From Hamadaea sp. (GTDB lineage Bacteria; Actinomycetota; Actinomycetes; Mycobacteriales; Micromonosporaceae), in assembly GCF_013362815.1 (NCBI RefSeq), contig NZ_JABFVK010000027.1, positions 7,140 through 71,139 of the forward strand: a stretch of 64,000 nt of DNA, given 5' to 3'. The notes below the pieces were generated by a model. It was not told the origin of the DNA. It searched no databases and worked only from the letters and a program-made list of their open reading frames with translations. The number at the start of each line of letters is the position of its first letter. Within the stretch, counting starts at the first letter, position 1. Made by a program: the position numbers and the translations under genes. Shown here in pieces: positions 1,664-47,794 of this stretch.

Positions 1664-1766
1664 CGACGCAACCGTTCCGGAAAGGTTGACATACAGACAG
1701 CTCAATGGTCCTATGTGTCCTTACGTTGGCCGGGCGCAGTCATCCGGCCCGACGGAAGGACGCTCG

Positions 1767-8596: not shown

Positions 8597-8640
8597 ATCG
8601 CGTGATCATGCCGTCACATTGAGTGAAGGAGCGCAGGGCG

Positions 8641-10116: not shown

Positions 10117-10130
10117 GTGGAGGAAGCACG

Positions 10131-11239: not shown

Positions 11240-11269
11240 GAACTTCCGGGCACCCCAGGCCCGCCGACC

Positions 11270-11881
<612 letters not shown>

Positions 11882-12030
11882 GTCTTGCCCTTTCCGGCGA
11901 CGCCGGATGGAGTGACGCGCCTTCTTCAGCAACGACGCCGAGCGACGACCGTCACATGTCCGGCTGTCACAGAACGGGGTGCTACCTGGTCTAGAGGGTG
12001 ACACGCGACGCGGCATCGTGGGAGGACCGA

Positions 12031-17922: not shown

Positions 17923-17945
17923 GCCTCAGCGAAAGGACCCCTCCC

Positions 17946-33822: not shown

Positions 33823-34272
33823 ATGCCGAGGGCGCGTACCGAGTCCCATGAACTGACCGTCGGCCAGGTGGCCGAGCGCAGCGGCGTCGCCGTGTCCGCG
33901 CTCCACTTCTACGAGCGCAAGGGCCTGATCAGCAGTACGCGGACGGCGAGCAACCAACGCCGCTACCATCGGGACATCCTGCGCCGGGTCGCCTTCATCC
34001 GGGCGTCGCAGACCGTCGGCATCTCACTCACGGCGATCCGGGAAGCGCTCGACCAGCTGCCCAGTGAGCGTACGCCGACCCGGGAGGACTGGGCGCGGCT
34101 GTCGAACGGCTGGCGGGCCCACCTCGACGAGCGGATCGCGCAGCTCCAGCGGTTGCGTGACGACCTCACCGGCTGCATCGGGTGCGGCTGCCTGTCGATG
34201 CGGACCTGCCAGCTCGCCAATCCCGGTGACGTCCTCGGCCGCACCGGCCCCGGAGCCCGCCGCTGGGCCTAG
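33823..34272 (+). CDS. soxR: Redox-sensitive MerR-family activator SoxR
   Basis: MerR HTH (LTVGQVAERSGVAVSALHFYERKGLI) and the [2Fe-2S] cluster motif CIGCGCLSMRTC. Confidence 0.85.
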   Translation: MPRARTESHELTVGQVAERSGVAVSALHFYERKGLISSTRTASNQRRYHRDILRRVAFIRASQTVGISLTAIREALDQLPSERTPTREDWARLSNGWRAHLDERIAQLQRLRDDLTGCIGCGCLSMRTCQLANPGDVLGRTGPGARRWA

Positions 34273-34808
34273 AGCGCTTGCGGCTTCCAGTTCTCGGCCA
34301 GCAACCCGAGCAGCACCTCGTCGAGGAACTCGCCCAGCACCCAGGCCGACGAGCGCAGGAGTCCCTCACGGACGAAGCCGTTGCGCTCGGCCGCCCGCAG
34401 CATCGCGGTGTTGTCGGCCAGCGTGTCGACCTGCAGGCGGTGCAGTCCGCGTACGACGAATCCGTAGTGGCAGAGCGTCGCGACGACATCGGTCCCATAG
34501 CCCTTGCCGCGAGCCGACGGCAGCAGGCCCATGCCGATGTGTGCGGATCGATGGTGGTTGTCGATGCCCCACACGCTCGCCGCGCCGATCAGGGTGCCGC
34601 CGGCCAGCTCGACCACGGAGAACTGGACGTTCGAGGGATCCTGGTCGTCGATCTGGACCTTCGGGTCGTTCGAGCTGGGCGACAGCGGACGCCACGGGCG
34701 GCCGTCCGCGCGGGCGGCGTTCACGACGTCGTTGAACAACTCGGTCCGCAGAATCGGGATGTCGTCCTCGTGCCGGGCCCGGAGCCCGACCTTGCTGCCC
34801 TGCAACAT
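34269..34808 (-). CDS. GNAT-family N-acetyltransferase (RimJ/RimL-like)
   Basis: 179 aa. Acetyl-CoA-binding region GLLPSARGKGYGTDVVATLCHYGF ... NTAMLRAAERNGFVREG. Confidence 0.7.
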   Translation of the reverse strand: MLQGSKVGLRARHEDDIPILRTELFNDVVNAARADGRPWRPLSPSSNDPKVQIDDQDPSNVQFSVVELAGGTLIGAASVWGIDNHHRSAHIGMGLLPSARGKGYGTDVVATLCHYGFVVRGLHRLQVDTLADNTAMLRAAERNGFVREGLLRSSAWVLGEFLDEVLLGLLAENWKPQAL

Positions 34809-35266: not shown

Positions 35267-36682
35267 TTAGGAAGGAGTGTGTACCGTTCCTGCGACCTTC
35301 ATGTGCCTGGCCCGCCGGTCCAGCTCCCGGTGGTCGATCTTGCCGTTCGGCAGCGTCGGCAGCTCGTCGACCTGGATCAGCTGAGTCGGCAGAGCTGCGG
35401 CGGGCAACGCGGCCAAGAGGTGACGGCGTACGCCGGGGCGGTCGAGCGATGCGGCGATCAGGAACGCCACCAGGCGGCCGTTTGCGACCCCCACGGCGGC
35501 GTACGCGATGCCGGGCGCACTGGCCAGCGCGTGCTCGACCTCGGCTCGCTCGATCCGCATCCCGCCGAGTTTCAGCTGGTCGTCGCCGCGACCGTGGTAC
35601 AGCAGTGCGCCGTCGGGCCGCCGGGCCACCAGATCGCCGGTGCGGTAATAGGGCTCACCGTCCAGTGTGGTCAGTTCCACGGTATTCGGCTCGGCCAGGC
35701 CCGGGCTGCTGACGTGGAGCACGCCGTTGACGAGGGCGATGTGCGTACCGGGGATGGGGTGGCCGATCGGCACCGAGCGCTGCGTCGCGTCGCCGGGCTC
35801 GCATTCGTGGACGGTGCACCAGACGGTGCACTCCGTCGGGCCGTACTCGTTGAACATCCGGGTGCCGGGCAGTCGTGCGAAGTGGTCGCCGACCAGACCG
35901 GGCGGGCAGGCTTCGCCCGCCACGATCGCGGCACGCAAGCTCGACAACTCGAGTCCGCCACGTAGGGCGACGGCGTACAGGGACGGCACGAGCAGCAGAT
36001 GCGTCGGGTGGTACGCCCGCGCGGCGCGGCCGAGGGCGACGAGGTCGCCGGGCCGATCGCTCGGGATGTGGACGGTGCCGCCGCAGGCGAGCGTCCAGTA
36101 GATCCCCGCCACTGAGCTGTCGAACGAGATCGACGAACACAACAGGAAACCGCCGACCGGCTCGCGATAGTAGGCCAGCCGAGCGGCCGTCGAGTACGCC
36201 AATGCCGCCGACGAGATGGTCACCGGCTTCGGCGTACCAGTGGAACCGCTGGTGAAACAGGTGTAGGCGAGCCGGCCGCGGCGTGTCGTCCGTCCTTCAT
36301 AAAGCGAGGGCAGCGCGGTCAGGTCGATCGAAAGCAGGTCCGGCCGCAACGAGGGCAGTCCCGGTTCGGTGAGCACGACGCGAGCACCGGCGGCGTCGGC
36401 GTACTGCCGTTGCCGGGCGGGTGGAAAGGCGGCGTCGACCGGAACGTAGCGAGCTCCGGCTCGCAATGCGCCCAGCATGGCCACGATCGCCCAGCGCGAC
36501 AGTCGAGTGTGGACTAGCACGGGATCGCCTGCTGTCACCCCGTTTGCCACCAAGGCATGCGCGGCACGGGCGCTCAGATCGTTCAGCTCGGTGTAGGTCA
36601 GCTGCCCGCCGCGATCGGTCACCGCCACCGTGGGGCCGGGCAGGTGTGGCTCGACGAGGTCGAGGATGTGCTCGGGCCACAT
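35267..36682 (-). CDS. Stand-alone NRPS-type adenylation (AMP-binding) enzyme
   Basis: 471 aa. Motifs: LTYTELN, YTCFTSGSTGTPKP (A3), FDSS (A4, Asp retained), NEYGPTE (A5), YRTGD (A7), GRGDDQLKLGGMRIE (A8), PNGKID (A10). 1-nt stop/start overlap with the upstream C gene. Confidence 0.85.
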   Translation of the reverse strand: MWPEHILDLVEPHLPGPTVAVTDRGGQLTYTELNDLSARAAHALVANGVTAGDPVLVHTRLSRWAIVAMLGALRAGARYVPVDAAFPPARQRQYADAAGARVVLTEPGLPSLRPDLLSIDLTALPSLYEGRTTRRGRLAYTCFTSGSTGTPKPVTISSAALAYSTAARLAYYREPVGGFLLCSSISFDSSVAGIYWTLACGGTVHIPSDRPGDLVALGRAARAYHPTHLLLVPSLYAVALRGGLELSSLRAAIVAGEACPPGLVGDHFARLPGTRMFNEYGPTECTVWCTVHECEPGDATQRSVPIGHPIPGTHIALVNGVLHVSSPGLAEPNTVELTTLDGEPYYRTGDLVARRPDGALLYHGRGDDQLKLGGMRIERAEVEHALASAPGIAYAAVGVANGRLVAFLIAASLDRPGVRRHLLAALPAAALPTQLIQVDELPTLPNGKIDHRELDRRARHMKVAGTVHTPS

Positions 36683-37860
36683 CAGCGGACTCCCGCGAAG
36701 AGCGGCAACTGCCGCAGGTACGCCGAGATCAGCTCGTCGATCGTGTCGGCGGTGTACGCACCGGTGTCGTAGGTGACGATTCCGGCGCCACCGGGATGGA
36801 CGGTGAACAGCATCGGACAGCCCAGAACCACCGACGGCGGCGTCTCAGGCCCGGCCGGCACAGCAGTCCATTGTGGCTGGACGACCGGCGGGGTCATCGA
36901 CGGCCGGGCGACGAGCCGGAAGGCCGGGGCGGCTCGCGTACCGGCCAGCACGTCGAGCAGTCCGGGAACCTCGCCCAGCACCGGCACGAGCGGGATGTCG
37001 TCCGCGTACGCCTGACGGCAGGCCGCGTCCACCCGCCGGAGCAGCTCGGCGGGGTCGGCCGCGGTGGGGATCGACACCCGCATCGTCAGCACGTTGAGGA
37101 GGAAGCCGACGGTGTCCCACTCGGACGGGATCCGGCCCGGGGTGACGACCGGCAGCAGCGCCTCGGCGAAATGCCCGGCCGGATACAGCATCGCGGCATA
37201 CGCCGAAAGCAGCACGGTGAACGGGGTGCTGCGCGCTCGCCGGGCGCTGCCGACCACCGCCTGCCAGAGGTCGTCGCCGAGGCGGAACGGGGTTTCGGCG
37301 TACCTGCCGCTGACCGGATCGCACCCCGGGCGCTCGACCTCGTCGAGCCCGGCCAGCCGCGTACGCCATCGCGGGAGCACTTCCGCGATGCGCTCTTGCC
37401 ATTGCGGCGAACGATCGTCGTTCGCGATGTCTGCGTACTGCATGATTTTGGTGGAGAGCCGGTCCCCCCGAAGCCGAGCGTGGTATGCCGTGGCGATGTC
37501 CCGGGCGATCACCGCGACCGACCACGGATCGGCGGCGCTGTGGTGCGCGGCGAGATCGAGCCGGTCGTCGCGCAACCGAGCGCGCAGCGTGGGCAGCTCG
37601 GTGGCCGGGAAGGGATCGGCGTAGCCGTCGAAGCGCACGGGCTCGGGCGGCTGGACCCGGCTGCCGCCGGGCTCCCGGAGGCTGCGCAACGCCTCGTGCC
37701 GGGCCACGACGTCGCCGAGCGCGGCCCGCAGCAACTCCTCGTCGATCGCACCCGCGACCTGGAAGGACTGCTCGACGACGAACCGGTCGCCGGTGGTCCG
37801 GCCCGGAGCGTGCCGTTCCAGCAGATCGAGGAGGTCCTGGGCGTAGGTGAGCGGGTTCAT
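36682..37860 (-). CDS. Stand-alone condensation-domain protein (HHxxxD retained)
   Basis: Track ORF 36682..38559; start placed at ATG 37860 (ATGA overlap with the P450 stop). C1-like motif PLTYAQDLL; HHSAADPWS at 37525-37545. 392 aa. Confidence 0.65.
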   Translation of the reverse strand: MNPLTYAQDLLDLLERHAPGRTTGDRFVVEQSFQVAGAIDEELLRAALGDVVARHEALRSLREPGGSRVQPPEPVRFDGYADPFPATELPTLRARLRDDRLDLAAHHSAADPWSVAVIARDIATAYHARLRGDRLSTKIMQYADIANDDRSPQWQERIAEVLPRWRTRLAGLDEVERPGCDPVSGRYAETPFRLGDDLWQAVVGSARRARSTPFTVLLSAYAAMLYPAGHFAEALLPVVTPGRIPSEWDTVGFLLNVLTMRVSIPTAADPAELLRRVDAACRQAYADDIPLVPVLGEVPGLLDVLAGTRAAPAFRLVARPSMTPPVVQPQWTAVPAGPETPPSVVLGCPMLFTVHPGGAGIVTYDTGAYTADTIDELISAYLRQLPLFAGVR

Positions 37861-39062
37861 GCGACGACCACCATCGGAAGGTGCTTCAGTCCGGAGAGGA
37901 ACGCCGAGCGGACCCGAACCGGCGGCCCGGCCAGTTCGAGGTCGGACACCTCGGCGAGCAGTCGGCCGAACAGCAGCCGCAATGTGCGGCGCGCTATGTG
38001 CGAGCCGATGCAGTAATGCCGTCCACTGCCGAAAGCGAGATGCCGATTGGGCCGCCGACCAGGATGGAACCGGTCCGGCGCGTCGAACACCGCCGGATCG
38101 CGGTTGGCGGCGCTCAGCCAGGCCACGACCGGCTGGCCCGCGTCGATCTCCTGCCGGCCCAGCCGCACCGGACGGCGCGTGTGCCGCACGAAATGCATGC
38201 CGGGAGTGGCGAATCGCAACGCCTCCTCCACTCCGCTGTCGAGCAGGTCGGGCCGCTGCGCCCAGGCCCGGTACGAGCCGGTCGCCGCGAGGTGGGCCAG
38301 CACCGCACCGGGCACGCCGGGCAGCGTCACCGTCGCTCCGAGCAGCAGACTGTACGCGTTCGCGACGATCGCGCCGGCGGGCAGCGGAGCACCTTCGAAC
38401 CGCATCGTCACTAGTACGCTCACCAGGTCGTCCCCGGGTTGCCGCATACGTTGGCGAACCAGATCGGCGAAGTACGCGAACAGCTCCCGATGGCCTCGCC
38501 GCAACGTGGCGGTCACCCCGTCGGGCAGTCGGACGTCGGGATCGTCCTCGGCGGCACACATCTCGGCGAACTGCGTCAGCCGGGCCCGGTCCGACTCCGG
38601 TACGCCGAGCAGCGGGCCGACGGCGGCGAGCGGCAACTCACGGAACACTGCGGCCAGGTCGACGACCGATCCGGCCGAGCGTCGCACGGGTTCGAGGACG
38701 GCGTTCACCGCTTCGTCCACTGCGGACATGTGCAGGTCGACCGCCCGCGCATTCAGCGCCTGCTGCACCGGTGCCCGCATGTGGTCGTGCCTCGGCGGAT
38801 CGGTCGCGGCCAGCTGCCGCCCGGCGGCGGGATCGGGCCTTCCCAGGAGGTTGAGGAGCGTACCGCGCTCGCTGGTGAACGTCTCGTAGTCCGAGAGCAC
38901 CCGGTTGACGTCGGCGTACTTGGTAACCGACCAGAACCCGGGCCGGTCGGGCGTCGGCGGCTGCCAATGCACCGGGTCGGTCTCGCGCAAGTCGTGGAAC
39001 ACCGCGTGCGCCCGGCCTGACGCGTACAGGTCGGGGTCGGCGAGGTCGAGGAGGTCGTTCAC
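37857..39062 (-). CDS. Cytochrome P450
   Basis: Track ORF 37857..39260; start placed at GTG 39062 (GTGA overlap with the carrier-protein stop). EEALR (ExxR) and the haem loop FGSGRHYCIGSHIA. 401 aa. Confidence 0.85.
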   Translation of the reverse strand: MNDLLDLADPDLYASGRAHAVFHDLRETDPVHWQPPTPDRPGFWSVTKYADVNRVLSDYETFTSERGTLLNLLGRPDPAAGRQLAATDPPRHDHMRAPVQQALNARAVDLHMSAVDEAVNAVLEPVRRSAGSVVDLAAVFRELPLAAVGPLLGVPESDRARLTQFAEMCAAEDDPDVRLPDGVTATLRRGHRELFAYFADLVRQRMRQPGDDLVSVLVTMRFEGAPLPAGAIVANAYSLLLGATVTLPGVPGAVLAHLAATGSYRAWAQRPDLLDSGVEEALRFATPGMHFVRHTRRPVRLGRQEIDAGQPVVAWLSAANRDPAVFDAPDRFHPGRRPNRHLAFGSGRHYCIGSHIARRTLRLLFGRLLAEVSDLELAGPPVRVRSAFLSGLKHLPMVVVA

Positions 39063-39337
39063 GCCGACGCCAGCTCGGCGACGATGGTGGCGGCGAGTTC
39101 GGCGACGGTCGGCGTGAGGAACAGCGTCCAGGTGGGAACCTCGACCCCGAACAGCTGGTCGATCGCCAGTTGCAGCTCGGCCGCGAGCAGCGAGTCGCCG
39201 CCCAGCTCGAAGAAGTCGTCGTGTACGCCGATCGGCGCCACCTCCAGCCGGGCGGTCCACAACTCGGCGAGCTGTTGTTCGACCGGATCCCGAGGAGCGA
39301 CATACTCCGTGCTCAGGTCCAGCGCCTGGCGGTTCAT
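39059..39337 (-). CDS. Stand-alone peptidyl carrier protein (PCP / thiolation domain)
   Basis: Track ORF 39059..40135; start placed at ATG 39337 (ATGA overlap with the upstream stop). 92 aa with the phosphopantetheine site FFELGGDSLLA. Confidence 0.8.
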   Translation of the reverse strand: MNRQALDLSTEYVAPRDPVEQQLAELWTARLEVAPIGVHDDFFELGGDSLLAAELQLAIDQLFGVEVPTWTLFLTPTVAELAATIVAELASA

Positions 39338-40731
39338 CGGCGTACCCCCATCTCGTCCATCAGTAGGTCCGCGAGGAGTGTGTCGGGCGCAGTGACGAGC
39401 CGGTCGGCGGTCGCGCGGAACCGGGCCGCAATCCGCTCCACCGTGGCGACCTCGAACATCGCGGGGTCGTAGGTCACCCGGACGACGAACGAGGCGTACG
39501 GCTCCATGACCCAGAGGAAGTCCACCGGCATCACCGGCGTCTCCCGCACCACCGCCGGCGGTAACCCCAGTCGTCGATAGTGGACGGTGGCGTCCGGATC
39601 CTCGGACCGGGGGATGGGCCGGCACAGCTGCATCGGCGCGGGCACGACGTCGCGCGCTTCGAACGCCGCCTCGGCCAGCTCCGGCAGCTCCTCCAGAATC
39701 CGGATGAGCGGCACGTCGTGGCGCAGCGCTTCGGTGTTCACGTGGTGGACGTGCGCCGCCGCTTCGGCCACCGTCATCGTGCCGGACAAGTCCAGCCGCA
39801 ACACGTGGCCGTTGAGGTAGAAGCCGATGCCGTCCCAGTCGCCCGCACCTCGCCCGGCCGACAGCACCGGGACGGCGATGCGGGTCTGACCCGCGGGCCC
39901 GGCGTGCTCGGCGTGCTCGGCGTGGCCGGCTAGGGCGACGGCGTACGCGGTCAGCAGGAGAGTGAACTCGGTGGTCCGCAGCGTTCTCGCCCGCGAACGC
40001 AGGCCCGCCACGACCCCATCCGGCAGCTCGAACGTGTGCAGCGCCTTCTCCCCGACGGCTGCTTTCGGGGAAAGCGGGCGCGGGCGGTCGGCCGGGATGC
40101 CCACTCGGCGTACGCCGGAAAGCTGTTCGCGCCAATACGGCAGCGCCTCCTGGATGCGCTTCTCCCGTTCGGGCGCAGCCTCGGCGGTGGCGTGATCGGC
40201 GTACTGCGGAACGGGGGCGACCGAGGCCGACGTCCCCCGCCGCCGACGTTCGTACGCCGCGACGACGTCACGGATCGCGACCTGCATGGTCCAGCCGTCG
40301 GCGACCGTCCGGTGGATGAGCAGGATGAGGCTCGACACGTCCGGGCCGAACCGGACGAGGTCGGCGGCCATCAGCGGAACCCGGTCCGGCGGCAGCGGCC
40401 GGGTCAGCGCCTCGGCCGTGATCTCGGCGGTGATGCGCAGCCGTTCGTCGACCGTGGACGCAGTGGCGTCGTGAATGCGCAATGGCACCGGCGCGGGTTC
40501 GGCGACTCGCTGGAACGGGAAGCCCTCGTCCCGCACGACCAGCGTACGCAGTCCGCTGTGCCGCACGACCAGCTCGTCCAGCGCCTCCTGGAGGAGGTCC
40601 GGCGCGACCGGCCCGGTCAGCTCGTGCGCGCACCAGTTGACGAACCCGCCGCCGAAGACGCTGCCGCCGTCGTGCACGGCGAACGCGGCGAGCAGCTGCT
40701 GAGCGTAGGACAGGGGTGCTTCGGTGGTCAT
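39334..40731 (-). CDS. Stand-alone condensation-superfamily protein with degenerate active site (HRxxxDG)
   Basis: Track ORF 39334..40869; start placed at ATG 40731. C1-like motif PLSYAQQLL. The active-site position reads LIHRTVADGW (40294-40314), so the second His is Arg. 465 aa. Confidence 0.65.
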   Translation of the reverse strand: MTTEAPLSYAQQLLAAFAVHDGGSVFGGGFVNWCAHELTGPVAPDLLQEALDELVVRHSGLRTLVVRDEGFPFQRVAEPAPVPLRIHDATASTVDERLRITAEITAEALTRPLPPDRVPLMAADLVRFGPDVSSLILLIHRTVADGWTMQVAIRDVVAAYERRRRGTSASVAPVPQYADHATAEAAPEREKRIQEALPYWREQLSGVRRVGIPADRPRPLSPKAAVGEKALHTFELPDGVVAGLRSRARTLRTTEFTLLLTAYAVALAGHAEHAEHAGPAGQTRIAVPVLSAGRGAGDWDGIGFYLNGHVLRLDLSGTMTVAEAAAHVHHVNTEALRHDVPLIRILEELPELAEAAFEARDVVPAPMQLCRPIPRSEDPDATVHYRRLGLPPAVVRETPVMPVDFLWVMEPYASFVVRVTYDPAMFEVATVERIAARFRATADRLVTAPDTLLADLLMDEMGVRR

Positions 40732-40802
40732 CGGCAACTCCAAACTGCGTGTTTCGGGGCGCTGCGGTCGGGCGGTCTCGCGCTGGCGTTTCGGGCGGTC
40801 TC

Positions 40803-40864
40803 GCGCTGGATCACGGATCTGGGTCGTATTCCGGTCAAGATTCGGCCCGGAACCCTGATCCAGC
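40803..40864. repeat. Palindromic extragenic repeat, family 2 (copy B)
   Basis: GCGCTGGATCACGGATC...CAAGATTCGGCCCGGAACCCTGATCCAGC, 27 nt downstream of the reductase stop. It is preceded by a 19-nt direct duplication of its left flank (40768-40786 and 40791-40809). Confidence 0.7.
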
Positions 40865-40890
40865 ACCAAGAAAGCCGGCTCAAAAGAGGG

Positions 40891-41874
40891 TCAGGCTGCC
40901 AGCAGCCCACGGCTGGCGGCGAGGTAGTCGACGGTGGCTACGAACGCCTCCTCGAGCCGCCGGGTCGGCGGCGGATCGGCCAGCGTGGTCGGGAACGGGG
41001 GCACGTTGTCGAACAGCGATGCGAGTGCCATCAGGTTGGCGAACTTGCGACGCTGCGGTGCGGGCAGCGGATCGATGTACGCCGGACGTACGACCCGGTC
41101 GACCAGCGCCGGGCGGACGAACCGCGGTGGGTGCACGGTGCGGCCGAGGTGGGGTGCGAGCTCGGCGACCAGCTCGACCATGCGCCCGATCGTGAGCGCG
41201 GCCGGTCCGGCGGTGAGCCAGTGGTCGGTGACCCCGTCGCCGGTGCGAAACGCCAGGCCGAGCAGTTCGTCGGCGACGACGTCGCGGGGCAGGGCGTCGA
41301 TGACGGCGTCCTGCGCGAACGGCAGCACGGGCAGGAGGTTGCGCAGAACAGCATCCACTGTGGAGTGGAGGCCCTGAAATCGGCTCATCCGGCCGGTGCG
41401 GGCGTCGCCCATGACCACACCGATCCGGGCGATCGCGGCCGGAAGTCCGGCGGTGCGGACGAGCTCTTCGGCGGCGAGTTTCGTCTCCAGATACGCCTGC
41501 GCAAGTGGGGCGGCGGTGTCCCGGCGTACGACGAACGCCGTCGAGGCGAACACGACCCGGGCTCCGGCATCGGCGGCGAACTCCAGGACGTGCCGGGTGC
41601 CGTCCACGTTGAGCGCGCGGAGCACCTCGGCGGACGCGGTGAACTCGGTCGCCCCGGCGCAGTGCACGACCGTGCCGACTTCGCGGGTGAGCTGCGCGTA
41701 CTGGTCGGGGGCGAGGCCCAGGCGGGGTGCGGTGATGTCGCCGGCGACGGCTGCCGCGGCGACACCACCGCGATGCACCAATGCGACGATCCGCTGCGCC
41801 GGCCGCCCAACCGGCACCGTCCCCAGCACGGCCGCGCCCACGGCCCCGCTGCCCCCGGTCAGCAAAATCGTCAT
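40891..41874 (-). CDS. Stand-alone thioester-reductase-type SDR (NRPS R-domain-like, NAD_binding_4 type)
   Basis: Track ORF 40891..41976; start placed at ATG 41874. MTILLTGGSGAVGAAVL Rossmann start, then VHCAGATEF ... NVDGTRHVLEFA ... YLETKLAAE (YxxxK). 327 aa. Confidence 0.65.
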   Translation of the reverse strand: MTILLTGGSGAVGAAVLGTVPVGRPAQRIVALVHRGGVAAAAVAGDITAPRLGLAPDQYAQLTREVGTVVHCAGATEFTASAEVLRALNVDGTRHVLEFAADAGARVVFASTAFVVRRDTAAPLAQAYLETKLAAEELVRTAGLPAAIARIGVVMGDARTGRMSRFQGLHSTVDAVLRNLLPVLPFAQDAVIDALPRDVVADELLGLAFRTGDGVTDHWLTAGPAALTIGRMVELVAELAPHLGRTVHPPRFVRPALVDRVVRPAYIDPLPAPQRRKFANLMALASLFDNVPPFPTTLADPPPTRRLEEAFVATVDYLAASRGLLAA

Positions 41875-42030: not shown

Positions 42031-42930
42031 TCAGATGCGATCGACTGCGAACAGCTGCGCGGGGTCGTCGGCCGAGCAGGCCGCGAAGACGACGGCGCGG
42101 GCTCCGGCCTCGGGGCGTACCGCGAGGCACTGTCCGAGTTCGACATTGCGGAGCAGATGCCCGCCGCCCGCCTCGCTCAGCGTGAAGAGCTGATGCTTGA
42201 CGTCCGTGCAGTAGCCGTCCGACGGCCGGTCGTCGTCCGCGACCGGATCCACGCCCATGCAGCCCTCCCCGAACTCCGGGTGGGAGGTGCGGAATCGGAC
42301 CGCGCCCCCGGCCACGGACTCGACTTTCAAGGTCGGGAACGCCTGCTCGCACGGCTCGATGAACAGATATCCGGTACTCCCGGTGTGTTCGCTCAGGCAG
42401 CCGGGGCCGGTCAGGGGGCGTACCCGGACGGTCGCGTTGGAGTCGGTGGGCACGGCGGCGGGCTTCTCCGGCGCCCGGTCCGTGGCCCACCAGGTCACGC
42501 CCGCGCCGGCGACTACGATCGCCGCCACAAGCGCCCATATGGATACGCGATTGAGTGGCAGGCGGTTCCAGCGACCAGCGACCGGGGCGTCCGGCGTGTC
42601 CGGGGAAGTCTCCGGCGACTCCGTCTCGTCCGCAGTGGACGGCGTGCTGGTGACGATCCGGCGGCGGGCGGCGAGCCAGACCGCGAGCTCCTCCCGGCTG
42701 CATCCGCAGGCCAGCAGCATCGCCGTCACGACCTCCTGGCGCGGCATGGTGTCCCGGTTGAGGGCGGTCGCCAGCGTGCTGATCGGCAGCGCGACGCCCT
42801 GCGCCCGGGCCCGTTGGGCGATCTGCCGATAGCTGAGCTCGGAGGCGACGCGTACGCGGCGGAGCAGGTCGACGAACTGGGCGGCGGAATTGGCGGAGGC
42901 GGGATCGATCCCGAGGTCGGTCATGCCCAT
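42031..42930 (-). CDS. HTH (XRE-like) regulator with one TM helix and a Cys-rich extracytoplasmic domain
   Basis: N-terminus FVDLLRRVRVASELSYRQIAQRARAQGVALPISTLATAL. A Ser/Pro/Thr linker follows, then TM helix IWALVAAIVVAGAGVTWW and a 150-aa domain with six Cys and a C-terminal QLF. Confidence 0.55.
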   Translation of the reverse strand: MGMTDLGIDPASANSAAQFVDLLRRVRVASELSYRQIAQRARAQGVALPISTLATALNRDTMPRQEVVTAMLLACGCSREELAVWLAARRRIVTSTPSTADETESPETSPDTPDAPVAGRWNRLPLNRVSIWALVAAIVVAGAGVTWWATDRAPEKPAAVPTDSNATVRVRPLTGPGCLSEHTGSTGYLFIEPCEQAFPTLKVESVAGGAVRFRTSHPEFGEGCMGVDPVADDDRPSDGYCTDVKHQLFTLSEAGGGHLLRNVELGQCLAVRPEAGARAVVFAACSADDPAQLFAVDRI

Positions 42931-43067: not shown

Positions 43068-43901
43068 TCAGACTCGCCGCCACAGTGCGGGCGTGTTCGG
43101 CGGCTCCCAGCCCGGCAGCGAGGTGTGCGCGATCTGGCAGACGTAGCTCAACCCGGCATAGGTGACCTGCGCGCCGAGGGCGTACGCCACATAAGGCGCC
43201 CACGTGCCGCCCGATGGCGGAGTCGGGCTGGGACTGGTGGTCTTCGTCGGAGTGGGCGACGGCGACGGCGGCGTGCCCTGGATGTTGAGGACGAAGTCGA
43301 AGGTGGCCTGCCGGCCCGAGCCGACGATCTGCACGTTCATCAGCAGGGCCGGATCGAAGATGGTGTCGGTCGAGTTGCGGGGCTCGTTCGGGAAGTACAG
43401 CTGAGTGGTCAGGATCGGCTTGCCCGGAGCCTGCACCTTCACGTGGATGTGCCGCGTACGCCCGGGGTACAGCCCCGGCACGATGCTGGTCAGGAAGTAC
43501 TTGCCCTGCGTGTCGGTGAGCTGATGACCCCGGAAGCGGGTGCCGACGTTGTCGTAGTTGCCGCCGTTGTCGCACTGCCAGAAGTCCAGCAGCGCCCCGG
43601 CAATGGGCTGGCAGGACAGCCCGACGACGTAGCCGGTCACCGTCAACGCCGTCCCCGGTCCGTCGGCGATCGACGTACGCAGCGGCGAACCCGGCTTGAA
43701 GTACGGGCCCTCGGTCTGCGGCGGCGTCAGGTCGTCGGCGTCGCAGTTCTCGGGCGTCGCCGCCAACGGCTGGCCGGACGGCGTACGGGCAAGAGCAGGC
43801 ACACTGGCCAGCAGTGGCACGGCGGGCACGATCATCGCCGCGCGGAGGATGGTCTTGCGGGACACACCGTTGGCCCGCTTCTCTTCTTCTCGGTCGCTCA
43901 T
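43068..43901 (-). CDS. Secreted (Tat-type signal) intradiol ring-cleavage dioxygenase fused to a C-terminal CBM5/12-like chitin-binding module
   Basis: Track ORF 43068..44102; start placed at ATG 43901. Motifs: SRKTILRAAMIVPAVPLLA, TEGPYF, LDFWQCDNGGNYD, YPGRTRHIHVKV. A Pro/Ser/Thr linker follows, then WAPYVAYALGAQVTYAGLSYVCQIAHTSLPGWEPPNTPALW. Confidence 0.7.
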   Translation of the reverse strand: MSDREEEKRANGVSRKTILRAAMIVPAVPLLASVPALARTPSGQPLAATPENCDADDLTPPQTEGPYFKPGSPLRTSIADGPGTALTVTGYVVGLSCQPIAGALLDFWQCDNGGNYDNVGTRFRGHQLTDTQGKYFLTSIVPGLYPGRTRHIHVKVQAPGKPILTTQLYFPNEPRNSTDTIFDPALLMNVQIVGSGRQATFDFVLNIQGTPPSPSPTPTKTTSPSPTPPSGGTWAPYVAYALGAQVTYAGLSYVCQIAHTSLPGWEPPNTPALWRRV

Positions 43902-43960
43902 GGCGACTCCTCTCTGGACGGACCGGGGACGGCGGCTGATGGCCACCGTCCCCGGGTGTT

Positions 43961-46324
43961 TCAGCAGGAACCCTGGTCGGACCAGACCGCCCAGGACCCG
44001 GGCGCGCCCGGCTCGGCGCCGGTCGACCACCAGGTCGACTTCCACCGGTGGCCGTTGTAGGACACGAGGTCGTCCGGTGCGTACGGCGTGGTGGCGCTCC
44101 ACGCGGGCAGGCCGCCACAGCCGCCGCCCCCACCACCGCTGACCGTCAACGTGAAGGTCGCGGTGTGCGTCGCCGACGTCCCGGTGCCGGTCACGGTCAG
44201 GTTGTAGGTGCCCGCCGTCGTCCCGGTCGCGACCGAGACCGTCAACGTGGAGCTGTTACCCGAGGTCACCGTGCTGGGGCTGACCGAGGCGGTCACCCCG
44301 GTCGGCGCGCCGGACACGGTCAGCGAGATCGACTGAGCGCTGCCCGACGTGGTGGTCGTCGAGATCTTCGGGCTGGTGGACTCGCCCGGTGCCACGGTGG
44401 CCGACGTCGGCGACAGGCTGACCGAGAAGTCGTCGCCGGTCGGCTGAGTCGTCACCGTCAGGGCGTACGAGGCGGTGTGCGTACCGCTCGCCGCACTGCC
44501 GGTGACCGTGACCGTCGCCGATCCGGTCGCCGCCGACGCGTTCGCCGTCAAGGTGAGCGTGCTCGAACCGCCGGAGGTGACGGTCGCCGGGCTGAACGTC
44601 GCGGTCACACCGGACGGCAGGCCGCTCGCCGACAGCGTCACGGTCTGGGCGTTTCCCGAGGTGGTGGCGGTCGCGACGGTCGTCGTGACGCTCGAACCCC
44701 GCTGGACGGTGCCGCCGGTCGGGCTGACGGACACCGAGAAGTCGTTGCCCGGCGCGACCGTGCACTGCGCCTCACCGGACTGGGCCGGCACGCTGACCGC
44801 GTCCCAGGCCGCCTTGACCGTGCGGCATTCCTGAGAGGACGCGCCGAACAGGTTGACCGCCGCGCGCAGCGTGGCGGTACGCACGTTGACGTAGCGCCAG
44901 CTCGACGTCTTCAGGTTCAGCGCGCCCATGTAGATCTGGCCGGCCTTCTGGATGCCGATGCCGGTGACGCTTCCGCCGTTGCAGGTCGGGCTCGACGGGT
45001 TGCCGCCGCTTCCGGCCGAGCCGATCGCGGTCAGGTAGAACCAGTGGTTGTTCGGCCCGGCCGCCGAGTGGACCTCGGTGTTCGGGATCGCCGACGAGTA
45101 GCAGTTCGGGTCGCCGAGTGCCTGCGGGTTGTACATGTTGCGGATCGGGCCCTGGCCGACGAGGTTGACCTCTTCGCCGACGAGGAAGTCCGGCGGGTCG
45201 TTCGGGTTGTTGGCGTATGCCTCGGTCAGCGCGCCGAAGATGTCCCCGGTGGACTCGTTGATGCCGCCGTTCTCGTTGCCGGAACCGGCGCCGCCCGGGG
45301 TGGTCTGGAAGATGGCGTGGCCGAACTCGTGCGCCACGACGTCGATCGAGGTCGCCTGTCCGGTGTTCGCCTGGTTGTGGCCGAAGCTGGTGTAGCTGCC
45401 GTTCCAGAACGCGTTGACGTCGTTCAGCCCGACGCGGGCGGGGTAACCGCCGCCGCTGCCGTTGATGCCGCTGCGGCCGAGCCAAGCGCCGAGCATGTCC
45501 CATTCGCGCTGCACGGCGTACAACGCGTCGACGCAGGCGGTCTCCAGGTTCGTCCCGCTTCCGTTGCCCCAGGAGTCGTCGGTGCCCGTGTACGCACCAC
45601 CGCTCTGGCCACCGCACTGGAGACCCGGCCGGGTGTTGTCGGTCATCGAGTAGGAGCCGCCGGAGCCGCTCGTGCCCAGGGTCACCTGGCCGTTGTAGTA
45701 GCCGTTGCCGGAGCCTTCACGGACGTCGTCGCGCAGGTCGAGGACGTGCGCGTCGGCGGCGTCCACCACGACGTGCAGACGGCTCGGCGCGTTGGCGCGT
45801 ACGCCTTCCAGCACGACCTCGTAGGCGAGCTTGTCACCACCGGGGGTGGCGAAGACGACCAGCTGAGGCGCGCCGGCCCGCTCGATCCGGCTGAGCTGCT
45901 TGCGGGCGACCGAAGCAGCCTTGGCCGCCGAAACCTTCGGCGTGACCGACGTGAGGCGTACGCCCCGGCCGAGCGCCGAAACGGTGTCCCGCACGGTGCC
46001 GGCTTTGTCGGTCACGACGACGGCGTCGCCGCCGAGCACCGGCAGACCGCGGAAGGTGCGTTCGTACGCGACGTACTGGAAGCCGCCGGAACCGGCGACG
46101 ACGTCTCGGCGTACGAATGCTTCGTTGGGGCCTTTCGCCAGCGCGTCGACGCCGCCGTCGGCGATCCGGTCGGCGGCGGCTGCGGCCAGCGCGGCCGGAT
46201 TGGCCGCCGGAGCGGGTGGGGCGTCCGGTCTGGCGCTGGCGAGCGAGACGCCCGGCATCACCAAGGCCAGACCCGCCACCGCGGCGCTGGCCGCGATGGT
46301 GATCCGAAGTCGGATGGGCTTCAC
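43961..46324 (-). CDS. Secreted M4 (thermolysin-family) metalloprotease with two Ig-like repeats and a C-terminal CBM5/12-like module
   Basis: Signal peptide and FTP/PepSY-like propeptide, zinc motif VVAHEFGHAIF, and GGINESTGDIFG. Two units of about 95 aa (DFSVSVSPTGG.. / DFSVSLSPTSA..) are followed by the tail GLPAWSATTPYAPDDLVSYNGHRWKSTWWSTGAEPG. Confidence 0.85.
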   Translation of the reverse strand: MKPIRLRITIAASAAVAGLALVMPGVSLASARPDAPPAPAANPAALAAAAADRIADGGVDALAKGPNEAFVRRDVVAGSGGFQYVAYERTFRGLPVLGGDAVVVTDKAGTVRDTVSALGRGVRLTSVTPKVSAAKAASVARKQLSRIERAGAPQLVVFATPGGDKLAYEVVLEGVRANAPSRLHVVVDAADAHVLDLRDDVREGSGNGYYNGQVTLGTSGSGGSYSMTDNTRPGLQCGGQSGGAYTGTDDSWGNGSGTNLETACVDALYAVQREWDMLGAWLGRSGINGSGGGYPARVGLNDVNAFWNGSYTSFGHNQANTGQATSIDVVAHEFGHAIFQTTPGGAGSGNENGGINESTGDIFGALTEAYANNPNDPPDFLVGEEVNLVGQGPIRNMYNPQALGDPNCYSSAIPNTEVHSAAGPNNHWFYLTAIGSAGSGGNPSSPTCNGGSVTGIGIQKAGQIYMGALNLKTSSWRYVNVRTATLRAAVNLFGASSQECRTVKAAWDAVSVPAQSGEAQCTVAPGNDFSVSVSPTGGTVQRGSSVTTTVATATTSGNAQTVTLSASGLPSGVTATFSPATVTSGGSSTLTLTANASAATGSATVTVTGSAASGTHTASYALTVTTQPTGDDFSVSLSPTSATVAPGESTSPKISTTTTSGSAQSISLTVSGAPTGVTASVSPSTVTSGNSSTLTVSVATGTTAGTYNLTVTGTGTSATHTATFTLTVSGGGGGGCGGLPAWSATTPYAPDDLVSYNGHRWKSTWWSTGAEPGAPGSWAVWSDQGSC

Positions 46325-46444
46325 GGGGTTGTTCTCCTTCTCGGGGGTTCTGGAGGGTTCTCCAGGGTGGGGAGGGAAGGCGCCGGCCTGGGCGCTGGTG
46401 GACGCCCAGGCCGGCAGGGGAGGAAACCGTGAGGTCTGTGTTTT

Positions 46445-47794
46445 TCAGCAGGAGCCGCGGTCGGCCCAGGCGGCCCAGGAGCCGGGCGCGCCCGGTTCGG
46501 CGCCGGTGGACCACCAGGTGGACTCCCAGCGGTGGCCGTTGTAGGAGACGTCGTCGCCGGGGGCGTACGCCGTGCTGGAGCTCCAGGCGGGCAGGCCGCC
46601 GCAGCCCTGGGGCGGGCCGCTGGTGGGGCCGGTGGTCGGCGACGTCGTCGGGGGAGTCGTGCCGCTGACCGTCAGCGTGAGCCCGTACGCCTGCAGGATC
46701 TCGTTGACCGGCTGGAAGTAGGTGGTGCCGCCGGAGGTGCAGTCGCCCGAACCGCCGGAGGTGACGCCCTGTGCCTGGTCACCGGCGATGAGCGAGCCGC
46801 CGGAGTCGCCGGGTTCGGCGCAGACGTTGGTGCGGATCAGGCCGGACACCGTGCCCTGGGAGTAGGTCACGGAGGCGTTGAGGGCGTTGATGGTGCCGCA
46901 GTGCCAGCCGGTCGTGGACCCCGACCGGCAGACCGTCGCGCCGACCCCGGCCGCCTGCGATCCGGCTACCGGCACGGTGCCGGGGTACCGGTTGACCAGC
47001 GCCCGGGAGGTGTTTCCCGCTGCGGTACGCACGAAGGAGTAGTCGTTGCCGGGGAAGCTCGATCCGGCGAACGTGCCGCTGGGCTGCGTCGTCGTGGCGC
47101 CGGTCGTCCCGCAGTGGCCGGCCGACACGAAGCCGCCGGTGACGGCGAATCCGACCGAGCATCGGGTGCCCGCGCCGATGTAGTACGCGTTGCCGCCGAT
47201 GACGTCGATCAGTGGGCGCGGTTGCTCCACACTGGACTCGAACCGTACGCCGTCCGCCGCCACACCGCTCGTCGCCGCCCAGACCCGGGCCGCGGCGAGA
47301 CCGCCGTCGCGGTAGAGGACGACGACGCGGTTCGACCGCACGTCGGCGTACCAGCCGGGAACCTGCCGAGGCGCGGACGCCGCGTGGCCGGTGAGCCGCC
47401 CGGTGTCGGCGAGGAGCCGGTCCTCGCTGCGGTCGACCTTGACCGGGACCGCGCCGGCCCCGCGAACGCGTGCGCTGTCGGCGGTGTTCGTCACCCCGAC
47501 CGTCAGCGCCGAGGCGTCCTCGTTGAGGTACGCGCCGCCGAACCGATCGGCGAGGTCGTGACGCAGGCGCTCTTCCGTACGCGCGAACGCCGCCTGCCGG
47601 CCGAGCCGGGCGAGCGCCTGATCGGGAGTGACGCCCAGGGTGCGGGCCAGCTCCTCGACCATGCCCCGATCGGCGGCGACCGGGACGGTGGCGGGCGCAC
47701 CCGAACCGGCGGAAGCCGTCGACGTGATCACCATCGCGGCGACTACCGCCGCCGTGGCGATCAGACAAGTTGTCAGCTTTGATCTGTTGACCAT
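46445..47794 (-). CDS. Secreted S1E (streptogrisin / alpha-lytic protease family) serine protease with a C-terminal CBM5/12-like module
   Basis: Pre-pro region, then CSVGFAVTGGFVSAGHCG (His), CAEPGDSGGSL (Ser), a Thr/Pro linker, and GLPAWSSSTAYAPGDDVSYNGHRWESTWWSTGAEPG. Confidence 0.85.
   Translation of the reverse strand: MVNRSKLTTCLIATAAVVAAMVITSTASAGSGAPATVPVAADRGMVEELARTLGVTPDQALARLGRQAAFARTEERLRHDLADRFGGAYLNEDASALTVGVTNTADSARVRGAGAVPVKVDRSEDRLLADTGRLTGHAASAPRQVPGWYADVRSNRVVVLYRDGGLAAARVWAATSGVAADGVRFESSVEQPRPLIDVIGGNAYYIGAGTRCSVGFAVTGGFVSAGHCGTTGATTTQPSGTFAGSSFPGNDYSFVRTAAGNTSRALVNRYPGTVPVAGSQAAGVGATVCRSGSTTGWHCGTINALNASVTYSQGTVSGLIRTNVCAEPGDSGGSLIAGDQAQGVTSGGSGDCTSGGTTYFQPVNEILQAYGLTLTVSGTTPPTTSPTTGPTSGPPQGCGGLPAWSSSTAYAPGDDVSYNGHRWESTWWSTGAEPGAPGSWAAWADRGSC

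What the first reader, a model, noticed from the sequence alone, without database searches (positions are those of the whole stretch)
35267..41874. Six-gene, fully dissociated NRPS-like line: A, C, P450, PCP, C-variant and reductase each as a separate small protein
Seen in sequence:
- Six consecutive minus-strand genes each encode one NRPS-type domain as its own protein.
- Reductase-type SDR: 327 aa, TGGSGAVG start, YxxxK.
- C-type protein: 465 aa, PLSYAQQLL.
- Carrier protein: 92 aa, GGDSL.
- P450: 401 aa, FGSGRHYCIG.
- Second C-type protein: 392 aa, PLTYAQDLL, HHSAAD.
- Adenylation enzyme: 471 aa, TSGSTGTPKP, FDSS with the Asp that normally pairs with an alpha-amino group, NEYGPTE, YRTGD, PNGKID.
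- The last five genes are translationally coupled: ATGA at 39334-39337, GTGA at 39059-39062, ATGA at 37857-37860, and a 1-nt overlap at 36682.
- No multidomain synthetase, thioesterase or MbtH-like gene is present in the window.

Established knowledge: these motifs define NRPS A/C/T/R domains. P450s encoded next to a free-standing carrier protein commonly oxidise the tethered aminoacyl thioester.

Inference: this is a minimal type-II-style NRPS making a small oxidised amino-acid or dipeptide aldehyde/alcohol. I do not recognise this gene order from any characterised cluster.
Basis: partly seen in the sequence, partly recalled or inferred. Interest (0 to 1): 0.8.

Follow-up and report, generated by a model that had tools for sequence, protein, structure and literature searches.

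The report
Split histidine NRPS line with P450
Six small, translationally coupled genes in a Hamadaea genome encode a complete peptide-synthetase module broken into separate proteins; it most likely loads histidine, oxidises it on its carrier and releases a small aldehyde or alcohol, and it is a rare, uncharacterised variant of known machinery.

Summary
Six consecutive minus-strand genes (35267-41874) encode a thioester-reductase-type SDR (R), a condensation-fold protein (C1), a 92-aa carrier protein (PCP), a P450, a second condensation-fold protein (C2) and an adenylation enzyme (A).

- **Substrate.** The A-domain specificity code reads DSALIAEVWK, a published histidine code. It is identical in all orthologues.
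- **P450.** It belongs to the clade of carrier-dependent aminoacyl beta-hydroxylases (P450sky, OxyD). Relatives occur fused to a PCP, and in A(His)/PCP-P450/thioesterase cassettes.
- **C proteins.** Both are closest to the free-standing enzyme SgcC5. C2 keeps the catalytic His. C1 invariably has HRxxxDG, as the glycopeptide X-domain does, but C1 is not an X-domain relative.
- **Distribution.** The six-gene order recurs only in a few Micromonosporaceae, with unrelated flanks. All six genes are under purifying selection. The sub-cassette PCP-P450-C2-A(His) also occurs in Streptomyces, in one case beside a giant NRPS.

Best reading: a dissociated C-A-T-R module plus P450 that makes a small beta-oxidised histidine-derived aldehyde or alcohol. 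The product is unknown, and I found no characterised match. It is a new variant of a known kind and a good genome-mining target.

The parts
42031..42930 (-). HTH_31 (XRE-type) regulator directly upstream of the operon and co-directional with it; probable cluster regulator
   Evidence: Pfam HTH_31, 29 bits. A homologous HTH gene sits upstream of R or C1 in L003, L005, L007 and L008, but not in M. zhanjiangensis.
40891..41874 (-). R: free-standing thioester-reductase-type SDR (327 aa), with TGGSGAVG, an AST/YxxxK triad and the Arg of VHRG
   Evidence: NAD_binding_4, 110 bits. Best PDB hits are the terminal reductase domain of MxaA (4U7W) and a PKS R domain. TIGR01746 Thioester-redct scores 89 bits, below its cut-off of 213. 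Motifs are conserved in orthologues.
40805..40864 (-). Conserved imperfect inverted repeat (hairpin or operator) in the 160-nt R-C1 spacer; present in Hamadaea only
   Evidence: Arms of 25 nt, 80% complementary. The counterpart in L005 has 26-nt arms, 92% complementary. RNA fold z = -4.2 (window) and -7.6 (L005). No Rfam family matches.
39334..40731 (-). C1: free-standing condensation-fold protein (465 aa) whose active-site motif is HRTVADG (second His replaced by Arg)
   Evidence: Condensation, 132 bits, full length. The HR motif is invariant in the eight orthologues that span it; a ninth is 5'-truncated before the motif. Best PDB hit is SgcC5 at 146 bits; the X-domain scores 55 bits. AF2 model pLDDT 77.6. 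Foldseek TM-score (query-normalised, TMq) is 0.78 to SgcC5 and 0.67 to the X-domain. dN/dS 0.19.
39059..39337 (-). PCP: free-standing 92-aa peptidyl carrier protein with the GGDSL serine
   Evidence: PP-binding, 55 bits. GGDSL is conserved in all orthologues. Related PCPs occur fused to related P450s (P0234, P0236).
37857..39062 (-). P450 (401 aa) of the carrier-protein-dependent aminoacyl oxidase clade; Cys-ligand loop FGSGRHYCIG; I-helix G-A-T-V-T, lacking the usual acid residue
   Evidence: Best natural PDB hits are P450sky (4L0E, 231 bits) and OxyD (3MGX, 212 bits). The I-helix variant is conserved across the clade. Genomic contexts L015 and L016.
36682..37860 (-). C2: free-standing condensation-fold protein (392 aa) that keeps the second (catalytic) His (HHSAADP); it lacks one N-lobe helix
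   Evidence: Condensation, 72 bits. Best PDB hit is SgcC5 at 114 bits. AF2 model pLDDT 86, pTM 0.85; Foldseek best hit SgcC5. The second His is kept in all orthologues. Streptomyces cassette orthologues are 43-47% identical.
35267..36682 (-). A: free-standing adenylation enzyme (471 aa) with specificity code DSALIAEVWK (histidine)
   Evidence: AMP-binding, 192 bits. The code was read from motif-anchored positions. The same 10-residue code is listed for His-activating domains in PMC12283262. The code is identical in L001, L003, L005, L007, L011, L013, L014, L015 and L017.
34269..34808 (-). GNAT acetyltransferase 459 nt downstream of A on the same strand; possible accessory or resistance gene; linked to the operon only in Hamadaea
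   Evidence: Acetyltransf_3, 69 bits. It is syntenic in L005 only.

Best explanation
This is a complete C-A-T-R-type nonribosomal module broken into single-domain proteins, plus a carrier-dependent P450. It is transcribed as one operon, with the last five genes translationally coupled.

Proposed sequence of events:
1. The A enzyme adenylates L-histidine and loads it on the 92-aa PCP. This is inferred from a 10/10 match to a published His code.
2. The P450 docks on His-S-PCP and oxidises the side chain, most likely by beta-hydroxylation as NikQ does in nikkomycin biosynthesis. This is inferred from clade membership, PCP-P450 fusions and A(His)/PCP-P450/TE cassettes.
3. C2, which keeps the catalytic His, forms one amide or ester bond with the tethered residue. 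Its partner is unknown: a second His unit, the reduced amino aldehyde or alcohol, or an acyl donor from primary metabolism.
4. R reduces the thioester with NAD(P)H and releases an aldehyde or alcohol.

C1 is a paralogue of C2 in which the catalytic His is always Arg. It is probably not a canonical condensation catalyst. Because it co-occurs with R, and not with the P450 cassette as such, it more likely acts as an adaptor or as a processing enzyme at the release step.

The expected product is a small beta-oxidised histidine-derived amino aldehyde or alcohol, or its dimer or N-acyl form.
For: - Domain identities.
- Overlapping start and stop codons.
- The six-gene order is conserved in Hamadaea sp. 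NPDC050747, M. zhanjiangensis, Plantactinospora sp. ZYX-F-223, Micromonosporaceae B7E4 and a MAG, with unrelated flanks.
- dN/dS is 0.09-0.28 for all six genes.
- The A code DSALIAEVWK is a published His code said to accept the beta-OH modification. It is identical in every orthologue and in related cassettes.
- The P450's closest natural solved relatives are the PCP-dependent beta-hydroxylases P450sky and OxyD.
- Clade members are fused to a PCP (P0234, P0236). In Micromonospora STR1_7 the arrangement is [PCP-P450]-A(His code)-thioesterase, which is the NikP1/NikQ/NikP2 logic.
- NikQ hydroxylates His only when it is on a T domain (PMC10099666; PMC8161544).
- C1 and C2 are closest in sequence and in predicted fold to the free-standing enzyme SgcC5.
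- C2 keeps the second His in all orthologues.
- R matches terminal reductase domains and has the glycine-rich loop and YxxxK.
- No other A, PCP, TE or MbtH gene lies in the 64 kb.
Against: - No step has been shown biochemically.
- The P450 clade lacks the acid of the I-helix acid-alcohol pair (G-A-x-V-T). Chemistry other than hydroxylation, such as desaturation or coupling, is therefore possible.
- R scores below the curated cut-off of TIGR01746 (89 vs 213 bits) and lacks about 30 residues present in MxaA.
- In Hamadaea, the A and C2 proteins carry deletions relative to Plantactinospora.
- In Streptomyces the PCP-P450-C2-A cassette exists without R and C1, and in S. formicae it sits beside a 7811-aa NRPS. 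So C2 need not act within a self-contained line.
- A free-standing C that offloads the residue to a soluble acceptor, as SgcC5 does, would leave no thioester for R.
Confidence: 0.6

Rival explanations
1. Neither C-like protein condenses anything. Both are adaptors (X-domain-like), and the pathway is simply A, then PCP, then P450, then R. This would give monomeric beta-hydroxy-histidinal or beta-hydroxy-histidinol, an imidazole analogue of the chloramphenicol amino-diol. Such a product might dimerise spontaneously to a pyrazine.
For: - C1 has HR in place of HH in every orthologue that spans the motif.
- A second HR..DE lineage arose inside the C2 clade.
- The X-domain motif is HRxxxDD, and X-domains recruit P450s (PMC11546977).
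- The cluster encodes no second activating enzyme.
- A-T-R plus beta-hydroxylase logic is known from chloramphenicol biosynthesis (my own knowledge, not tested here).
Against: - C2 keeps the catalytic His in all orthologues, and the core C motifs are intact.
- P450 orthologues work in cassettes that have no HR-type protein.
- C1 and C2 are much closer to the active enzyme SgcC5 than to the X-domain.
Confidence: 0.15
2. C2 acts like a starter C domain. It N-acylates His-S-PCP with an acyl-CoA or acyl-ACP from primary metabolism, and R then releases an N-acyl-(beta-OH)-histidinal or -histidinol, that is, a lipo-amino aldehyde or alcohol.
For: - There is only one A and one PCP, so a donor must come either from outside the cluster or from the same PCP.
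- The domain set matches C-A-T-R termination modules.
- An analogous dissociated set in Kribbella carries an extra FAAL-like AMP-binding enzyme beside C, PCP, R and a P450.
Against: - Neither C1 nor C2 is closest to starter C domains. The CDA C1 starter domain appears only at Foldseek rank 46-48 and not among the sequence hits.
- The cluster has no acyl-activating gene.
- The Kribbella proteins are only about 30% identical and its A enzyme is not an amino-acid A domain.
Confidence: 0.13
3. The operon is a building-block supply line that works in trans with a synthetase encoded elsewhere in the genome, as the related Streptomyces cassette appears to do beside its giant NRPS.
For: - The PCP-P450-C2like-A(His) cassette lies next to a 7811-aa NRPS in S. 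formicae. In S. kanamyceticus a truncated AMP-binding gene sits at the contig end.
- Type II NRPS proteins usually feed type I lines (PMC8857579).
Against: - No NRPS lies within 64 kb here or within 10 kb in any of the Micromonosporaceae loci.
- The six genes travel together between different genomic contexts.
- The presence of a releasing reductase argues for a self-contained line.
Confidence: 0.09
4. The operon is a decaying relic with no current product.
For: - Deletions in A and C2 relative to Plantactinospora.
- Remnant loci exist: an orphan C1 in Plantactinospora B6F1, and R plus a truncated C1 in P. endophytica.
Against: - All six reading frames are intact and the couplings are preserved.
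- dN/dS is 0.09-0.28.
- All catalytic motifs are retained.
- The C2 model is confident despite the deletion (pLDDT 86).
Confidence: 0.03

Closest known systems
NikP1 / NikQ / NikP2 of nikkomycin biosynthesis (beta-hydroxyhistidine formation)
   Same: A histidine-activating A domain, a carrier protein and a P450 that acts only on the tethered amino acid (PMC10099666; PMC8161544). The His code DSALIAEVWK is reported as compatible with beta-OH-His. A relative of the P450 here sits in a [PCP-P450]-A(His)-thioesterase cassette.
   Different: Here A and PCP are separate proteins. There is no thioesterase; release is by a reductase. Two condensation-fold proteins are added. NikQ and NikP1 sequences were not compared directly.
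SgcC1 / SgcC2 / SgcC5 type II NRPS of C-1027 (free-standing A, PCP and C)
   Same: Free-standing A, PCP and C proteins. SgcC5 is the best sequence and fold match of both C1 and C2. SgcC5 is described as a free-standing condensation enzyme that forms ester and amide bonds (PMC10212144).
   Different: Sequence identity is only 26-28% in the Foldseek alignments. The substrate is an alpha-amino acid (His) and not beta-tyrosine. There is no enediyne or other acceptor pathway. C1 lacks the second His. A reductase is present.
X-domain of glycopeptide antibiotic NRPSs
   Same: A condensation fold with the second His of the motif replaced by Arg (HRxxxDD in the X-domain, HRTVADG in C1), encoded next to a PCP and a P450 (PMC11546977).
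   Different: C1 is free-standing and not embedded between a PCP and a TE. It scores 55 bits against the X-domain and 146 bits against SgcC5, with TMq 0.67 vs 0.78. Orthologous P450s occur without any C1. C1 co-occurs with R.
C-A-T-R termination modules (e.g. MxcG, AusA module 2, TomB) and the A-T-R/beta-hydroxylase pair CmlP/CmlA of chloramphenicol
   Same: The same domain set and the same expected logic: load, optionally beta-hydroxylate on the carrier, condense, then release reductively. The generic NCBIfam matches to MxcG and AusA come from these shared domains.
   Different: All domains are separate polypeptides here. All scores are far below the equivalog cut-offs. The comparison with CmlP/CmlA rests on my own knowledge and was not tested.
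Uncharacterised PCP-P450-C-A(His) cassettes of Streptomyces and Plantactinospora
   Same: Orthologous genes in the same order: PCP 60%, P450 54%, C2 43%, A 53% identity. They carry the same His code.
   Different: They lack R and C1. In S. formicae the cassette is beside a giant NRPS. In Plantactinospora B6F1 its C is of the HR..DE type and a divergent canonical C is added.

Membership tests
Type II (dissociated) NRPS | A domain, carrier protein and tailoring or condensing enzymes encoded as stand-alone proteins | tested here: met
   Six single-domain proteins. Definition taken from PMC8857579.
Type II (dissociated) NRPS | Usually feeds a downstream type I NRPS or PKS encoded nearby | tested here: not met
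   No multidomain synthetase in the 64 kb or in the orthologous loci.
NikP1/NikQ-type beta-hydroxyhistidine system | Histidine-specific adenylation domain | tested here: met
   Code DSALIAEVWK, identical to a published His code. This is a prediction, not an assay.
NikP1/NikQ-type beta-hydroxyhistidine system | P450 of the carrier-dependent aminoacyl beta-hydroxylase clade | tested here: inconclusive
   The closest natural structures are P450sky and OxyD, and PCP fusions exist in the clade. NikQ itself was not compared, and the I-helix acid is missing.
NikP1/NikQ-type beta-hydroxyhistidine system | Hydrolytic release of the free beta-hydroxy amino acid by a thioesterase | tested here: not met
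   No thioesterase in the operon or the window. A reductase and two C proteins are present instead.
SgcC5-type free-standing condensation enzymes | Stand-alone complete condensation fold of about 400-460 aa | tested here: met
   AF2 models with pTM 0.78 and 0.85. SgcC5 is the top Foldseek and phmmer hit for both proteins.
SgcC5-type free-standing condensation enzymes | Intact HHxxxD active-site motif | tested here: inconclusive
   Met by C2 (HHSAADP; QH in two orthologues). Not met by C1 (HRTVADG in every orthologue that spans the motif).
SgcC5-type free-standing condensation enzymes | Transfers a PCP-tethered aminoacyl group to a soluble alcohol or amine acceptor | not testable with these tools
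   Needs an enzyme assay.
Glycopeptide X-domain | HRxxxDD/E motif in a condensation fold | tested here: inconclusive
   C1 has HRTVADG: the Arg is present, but the last residue is Gly and not Asp or Glu. Motif definition from PMC11546977.
Glycopeptide X-domain | Embedded in the last NRPS module, and specifically related in sequence to GPA X-domains | tested here: not met
   C1 is free-standing. It scores 55 bits against 4TX2 and 146 bits against SgcC5, and the X-domain ranks 21-38 by fold.
Glycopeptide X-domain | Recruits P450s to the carrier-bound substrate | not testable with these tools
   Needs binding or co-crystal data, or multimer modelling.
NRPS/PKS terminal thioester reductase (R) domain | NAD_binding_4 fold with the glycine-rich loop and the Ser/Thr-Tyr-Lys triad | tested here: met
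   110 bits. TGGSGAVG, AST and YLETK are aligned to MxaA and conserved in orthologues.
NRPS/PKS terminal thioester reductase (R) domain | Reaches the curated score of TIGR01746, and is fused C-terminal to a carrier domain | tested here: not met
   89 bits against a cut-off of 213. The protein is stand-alone.

The most novel reading that the evidence does not exclude
This would be a self-contained, fully dissociated C-A-T-R line in which a free-standing condensation-fold protein with HR in place of HH has become a non-catalytic adaptor, or a new kind of catalyst, for the release or oxidation step. That change arose at least twice independently in this family of histidine cassettes: once in the C1 lineage and once in an HR..DE sublineage of C2. 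In both cases the HR protein is paired with a protein that retains the catalytic His. The product would be a new class of beta-oxidised histidine-derived amino aldehydes or alcohols, or their imidazole-bearing heterocycles.
Probability: 0.25. Interest if true: 0.8.

Novelty: new variant of a known kind. Interest (0 to 1): 0.6.

Why it matters
If the reading is right, this is one of the smallest complete NRPS lines known. Every step, from loading through on-carrier oxidation and condensation to reductive release, sits on its own small soluble protein. That makes it an unusually tractable system for studying how a single free carrier protein is shared among five partners.

It would also yield a histidine-derived aldehyde or alcohol scaffold that I could not find described. 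Peptide and amino aldehydes are often protease or proteasome inhibitors.

The repeated appearance of HR-type condensation-fold proteins next to a carrier-dependent P450, outside glycopeptide pathways, offers a direct test of whether X-domain-like adaptor function has evolved more than once.

Tried and rejected
- **Exact look-up of the window's C1 on public contigs** found nothing, although an identical NCBI protein exists.
- **The 1.84-billion-representative search with C1** was swamped by multi-C giant NRPSs. It showed only that a single stand-alone representative (P0002) scores like the family.
- **NCBIfam** gave no equivalog for any of the six proteins.
- **The distant C1 hit P0010** sits in an ordinary large NRPS cluster and has HH, so it is not informative.
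- **The Kribbella locus (L012)** looked like a parallel dissociated A/P450/PCP/R/C set. Its A enzyme is an acyl-type ligase and its proteins are only about 30% identical, so I rejected it as an orthologue.
- **Filing C1 as an X-domain** was rejected on sequence, on fold and on gene co-occurrence.
- **Literature searches** for hydroxyhistidine, NikQ/NikP1, SgcC5, type II NRPS with histidine, SfmC/Pictet-Spengler and Hamadaea BGCs found no matching cluster. I considered the Pictet-Spengler idea, in which C1 cyclises a histidinal as the C domain of SfmC does. I found nothing for or against it, so it stays a speculation.
- **Rfam** found no family for the R-C1 spacer hairpin.
- **A sigma-70 promoter scan** found nothing useful upstream of the operon.

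Full report
**1. Observation**

The window is about 70% G+C. By identity of three encoded proteins, it comes from a Hamadaea sp. metagenome-assembled genome of the Micromonosporaceae.

Pfam assigns each one domain above its gathering score:
- A (35267-36682): AMP-binding, 192 bits.
- C2 (36682-37860): Condensation, 72 bits.
- P450 (37857-39062): p450, 74 bits.
- PCP (39059-39337): PP-binding, 55 bits.
- C1 (39334-40731): Condensation, 132 bits.
- R (40891-41874): NAD_binding_4, 110 bits.

All quoted motifs are present. The four overlaps (ATGA, GTGA, ATGA, TGATG) are as stated.

A motif scan of all six frames found only one A3 motif, one GGDSL and no MbtH signature in the 64 kb. Pfam scans of about 50 other ORFs gave sugar-utilisation genes, secreted proteases, regulators, kynurenine-pathway genes and transporters. 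They gave no synthetase and no thioesterase.

**2. The unit is real and conserved**

C1 has only about nine close homologues in 5.8 billion proteins, all from Hamadaea, Micromonospora zhanjiangensis, Plantactinospora or unnamed Micromonosporaceae. The next hit drops to 32% identity. A scan of one genome from each of 185,579 species found six loci, all Micromonosporaceae.

Five of the other genomes carry the same order R-C1-PCP-P450-C2-A, with unrelated flanking genes. The six genes therefore move as a unit. An HTH_31 regulator lies upstream in most of them.

dN/dS between the window and Hamadaea sp. NPDC050747 is 0.09-0.28 for all six genes. This includes C1, and also the A and C2 proteins that carry deletions.

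Two genomes hold remnants. Plantactinospora B6F1 has the HTH gene plus an orphan C1. P. endophytica has R plus a 5'-truncated C1.

**3. Substrate**

I read the ten specificity positions from the conserved motifs: FD-S-S-V-A, HLL-L-LVPS, A-I-V-A-GE, N-E-YGPTECT-V-W and NGK. This gives DSALIAEVWK. [quoted passage not shown] An exact 10/10 match also confirms that the positions were read correctly.

The code is identical in every orthologue and in all related cassettes I examined.

**4. The P450**

Apart from an ancestral-reconstruction CYP125, the best solved relatives are P450sky (231 bits) and OxyD (212 bits). Both hydroxylate the beta-carbon of carrier-bound amino acids.

The wider family has more than 1000 members at E < 1e-40 and includes two natural PCP-P450 fusions whose PCP part resembles the PCP here. 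One fusion, in Micromonospora sp. STR1_7, is followed by an A enzyme with the same His code and then a thioesterase. That is the logic described for nikkomycin, where NikQ hydroxylates histidine only when it is on a T domain (PMC10099666; PMC8161544).

One caveat: the whole clade has G-A-x-V-T in the I-helix where P450sky has GGDETS and OxyD has GGNETT. The usual acid residue is missing, so a different oxidative outcome cannot be excluded.

**5. The two condensation-fold proteins**

Both are closest to SgcC5, the free-standing ester- and amide-forming enzyme of C-1027 (PMC10212144). This holds by sequence, at 146 and 114 bits. It also holds by predicted fold, with C1 at pLDDT 77.6 and TMq 0.78 and C2 at pLDDT 86 and TMq 0.77-0.81. 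C1 and C2 are about 33% identical paralogues.

C2 keeps the second His of HHxxxD in all orthologues (HH, or QH in two). C1 has IHRTVADGW in every orthologue that spans the motif.

HR is the hallmark of the glycopeptide X-domain (HRxxxDD), which recruits P450s (PMC11546977). But C1 is not an X-domain relative: it scores 55 bits and TMq 0.67 against the X-domain. Two cautions come from the same review: a non-His residue at this position does not always abolish activity (streptothricin ORF18 has HQxxxDM), and the role of the second His is itself debated.

**6. A wider cassette family**

C2, but not C1, has 42-49% identical stand-alone homologues in Streptomyces. There the genes PCP-P450-C-A form a four-gene cassette orthologous to the last four genes here and carrying the same His code.
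- In S. formicae the cassette is divergent from a 7811-aa NRPS that starts A-MT-T-C-A-T-C.
- In S. alboniger no NRPS is adjacent.
- In Plantactinospora B6F1 a third architecture appears: a divergent canonical C (SHHAVDG), then PCP, P450, a C2-lineage protein with HRVAVDE, and A(His). It has ABC transporters and a SARP regulator but no R.

A neighbour-joining tree places the HRVAVDE group inside the C2 lineage and apart from C1 (no bootstrap support was computed). The His-to-Arg change therefore arose at least twice, each time in a system that also has a protein retaining the catalytic His.

C1 co-occurs with R, not with the P450 as such. P450 orthologues operate in cassettes that lack any HR protein.

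**7. The reductase**

R aligns with the terminal reductase of MxaA and with a PKS R domain. It keeps TGGSGAVG, the AST/YxxxK triad and the Arg of the NADPH 2'-phosphate site. It is shorter than those domains, with about 30 residues missing after the first beta-alpha-beta unit. It also falls below the curated TIGR01746 cut-off. I therefore file it as working like an R domain, not as a certified member of that family.

**8. Mechanism**

Shown by the tools: the domain identities, the operon structure, the conservation, and the codes and motifs.

Inferred:
1. His is loaded on the PCP.
2. The P450 oxidises it on the carrier, most likely at the beta-carbon.
3. C2 makes one bond.
4. R releases an aldehyde or alcohol.

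The partner of C2 and the role of C1 are open. Rivals: an adaptor-only model that gives monomeric beta-hydroxy-histidinal or -histidinol; N-acylation from a primary-metabolism donor; in-trans supply to a distant NRPS; and decay. I rank them at 0.15, 0.13, 0.09 and 0.03, against 0.6 for the general model.

**9. Novelty**

Every part belongs to a known kind: type II NRPS components, Nik-like histidine oxidation, an SgcC5-like C and an R-type release enzyme. But I found no description of this combination, of its full dissociation, of the invariant HR protein or of the histidine substrate in NCBIfam or in the literature I could search. I could not run MIBiG or antiSMASH.

I rate it a new variant of a known kind, with interest 0.6.

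Noticed in passing
window 40732-40890 (minus strand), R-C1 spacer: Hamadaea loci have a 143-160-nt spacer between R and C1; in other genera the two genes are at most 18 nt apart or overlap. The spacer holds a conserved 25-26-nt inverted repeat (window 40805-40829 / 40840-40864; L005 9890-9915 / 9925-9950). It folds strongly as RNA (z = -4.2 and -7.6) and matches no Rfam family. It could be an operator, an attenuator or a processing site.
   Followed up: partly
window 40768-40786 and 40791-40809: An exact 19-nt direct repeat (TCGGGCGGTCTCGCGCTGG on the + strand), spaced 23 nt apart, just upstream of the C1 start. It is absent from the L005 spacer.
   Followed up: partly
window 40892-40909 (minus strand): A terminator-like hairpin with a T-run overlaps the R stop codon. 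The number of such sites in the region is not above chance (5 found, 2.6 expected).
   Followed up: no
window 37857-39062; P450 I-helix (residues about 245-252): The whole P450 clade, including the PCP-fused members and S. clavuligerus CYP185A1, has G-A-x-V-T in place of the usual G-G-x-D/E-T. The conserved acid of the oxygen-activation pair is missing.
   Followed up: partly
window 35267-36682 and 36682-37860, compared with L003 and L007: In Hamadaea and M. zhanjiangensis the A enzyme lacks 11 residues plus about 40 more between motifs A5/A6 and A7. Their C2 lacks an N-lobe helix of about 35 residues that is present in Plantactinospora. Both proteins remain under purifying selection, and the C2 model is confident.
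   Followed up: partly
L008 (Plantactinospora sp. B6F1) 8429-11356; L010 (P. endophytica) 8772-10942: These are remnant loci. One has the HTH regulator plus an intact orphan C1, with no R, PCP, P450, C2 or A. The other has R plus a 5'-truncated C1 only. B6F1 carries a different His cassette elsewhere in its genome (L017).
   Followed up: partly
L015 (Micromonospora sp. STR1_7) 6407-13654: A [PCP-P450 fusion]-A(His code)-thioesterase cassette sits inside a putative phosphonate cluster (PEP mutase, HMGL-like, aconitase-like and PhyH genes). This suggests a beta-hydroxyhistidine-containing phosphonate.
   Followed up: no
window 1572-4745 (+): Two tryptophan-2,3-dioxygenase-like ORFs, which overlap as stop-to-stop frames, are followed by a kynureninase-like aminotransferase-V gene. 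A MEDS/HATPase sensor gene lies next to them.
   Followed up: no
window 5787-8912 (-) and 16725-19577 (+): Two long ORFs (1041 aa and 950 aa) have no Pfam match at E < 1e-4. The first shows coding-type codon bias; the second did not reach the GC3 > 0.80 filter used for that. The second lies inside a sugar-utilisation locus.
   Followed up: no
window 43068-47794 (-): Three consecutive secreted-enzyme genes each end in a CBM_5_12 chitin-binding module: an intradiol-dioxygenase-like protein, an M4 thermolysin-like protease and an alpha-lytic-type protease. They are adjacent to the cluster but not conserved with it outside Hamadaea.
   Followed up: no
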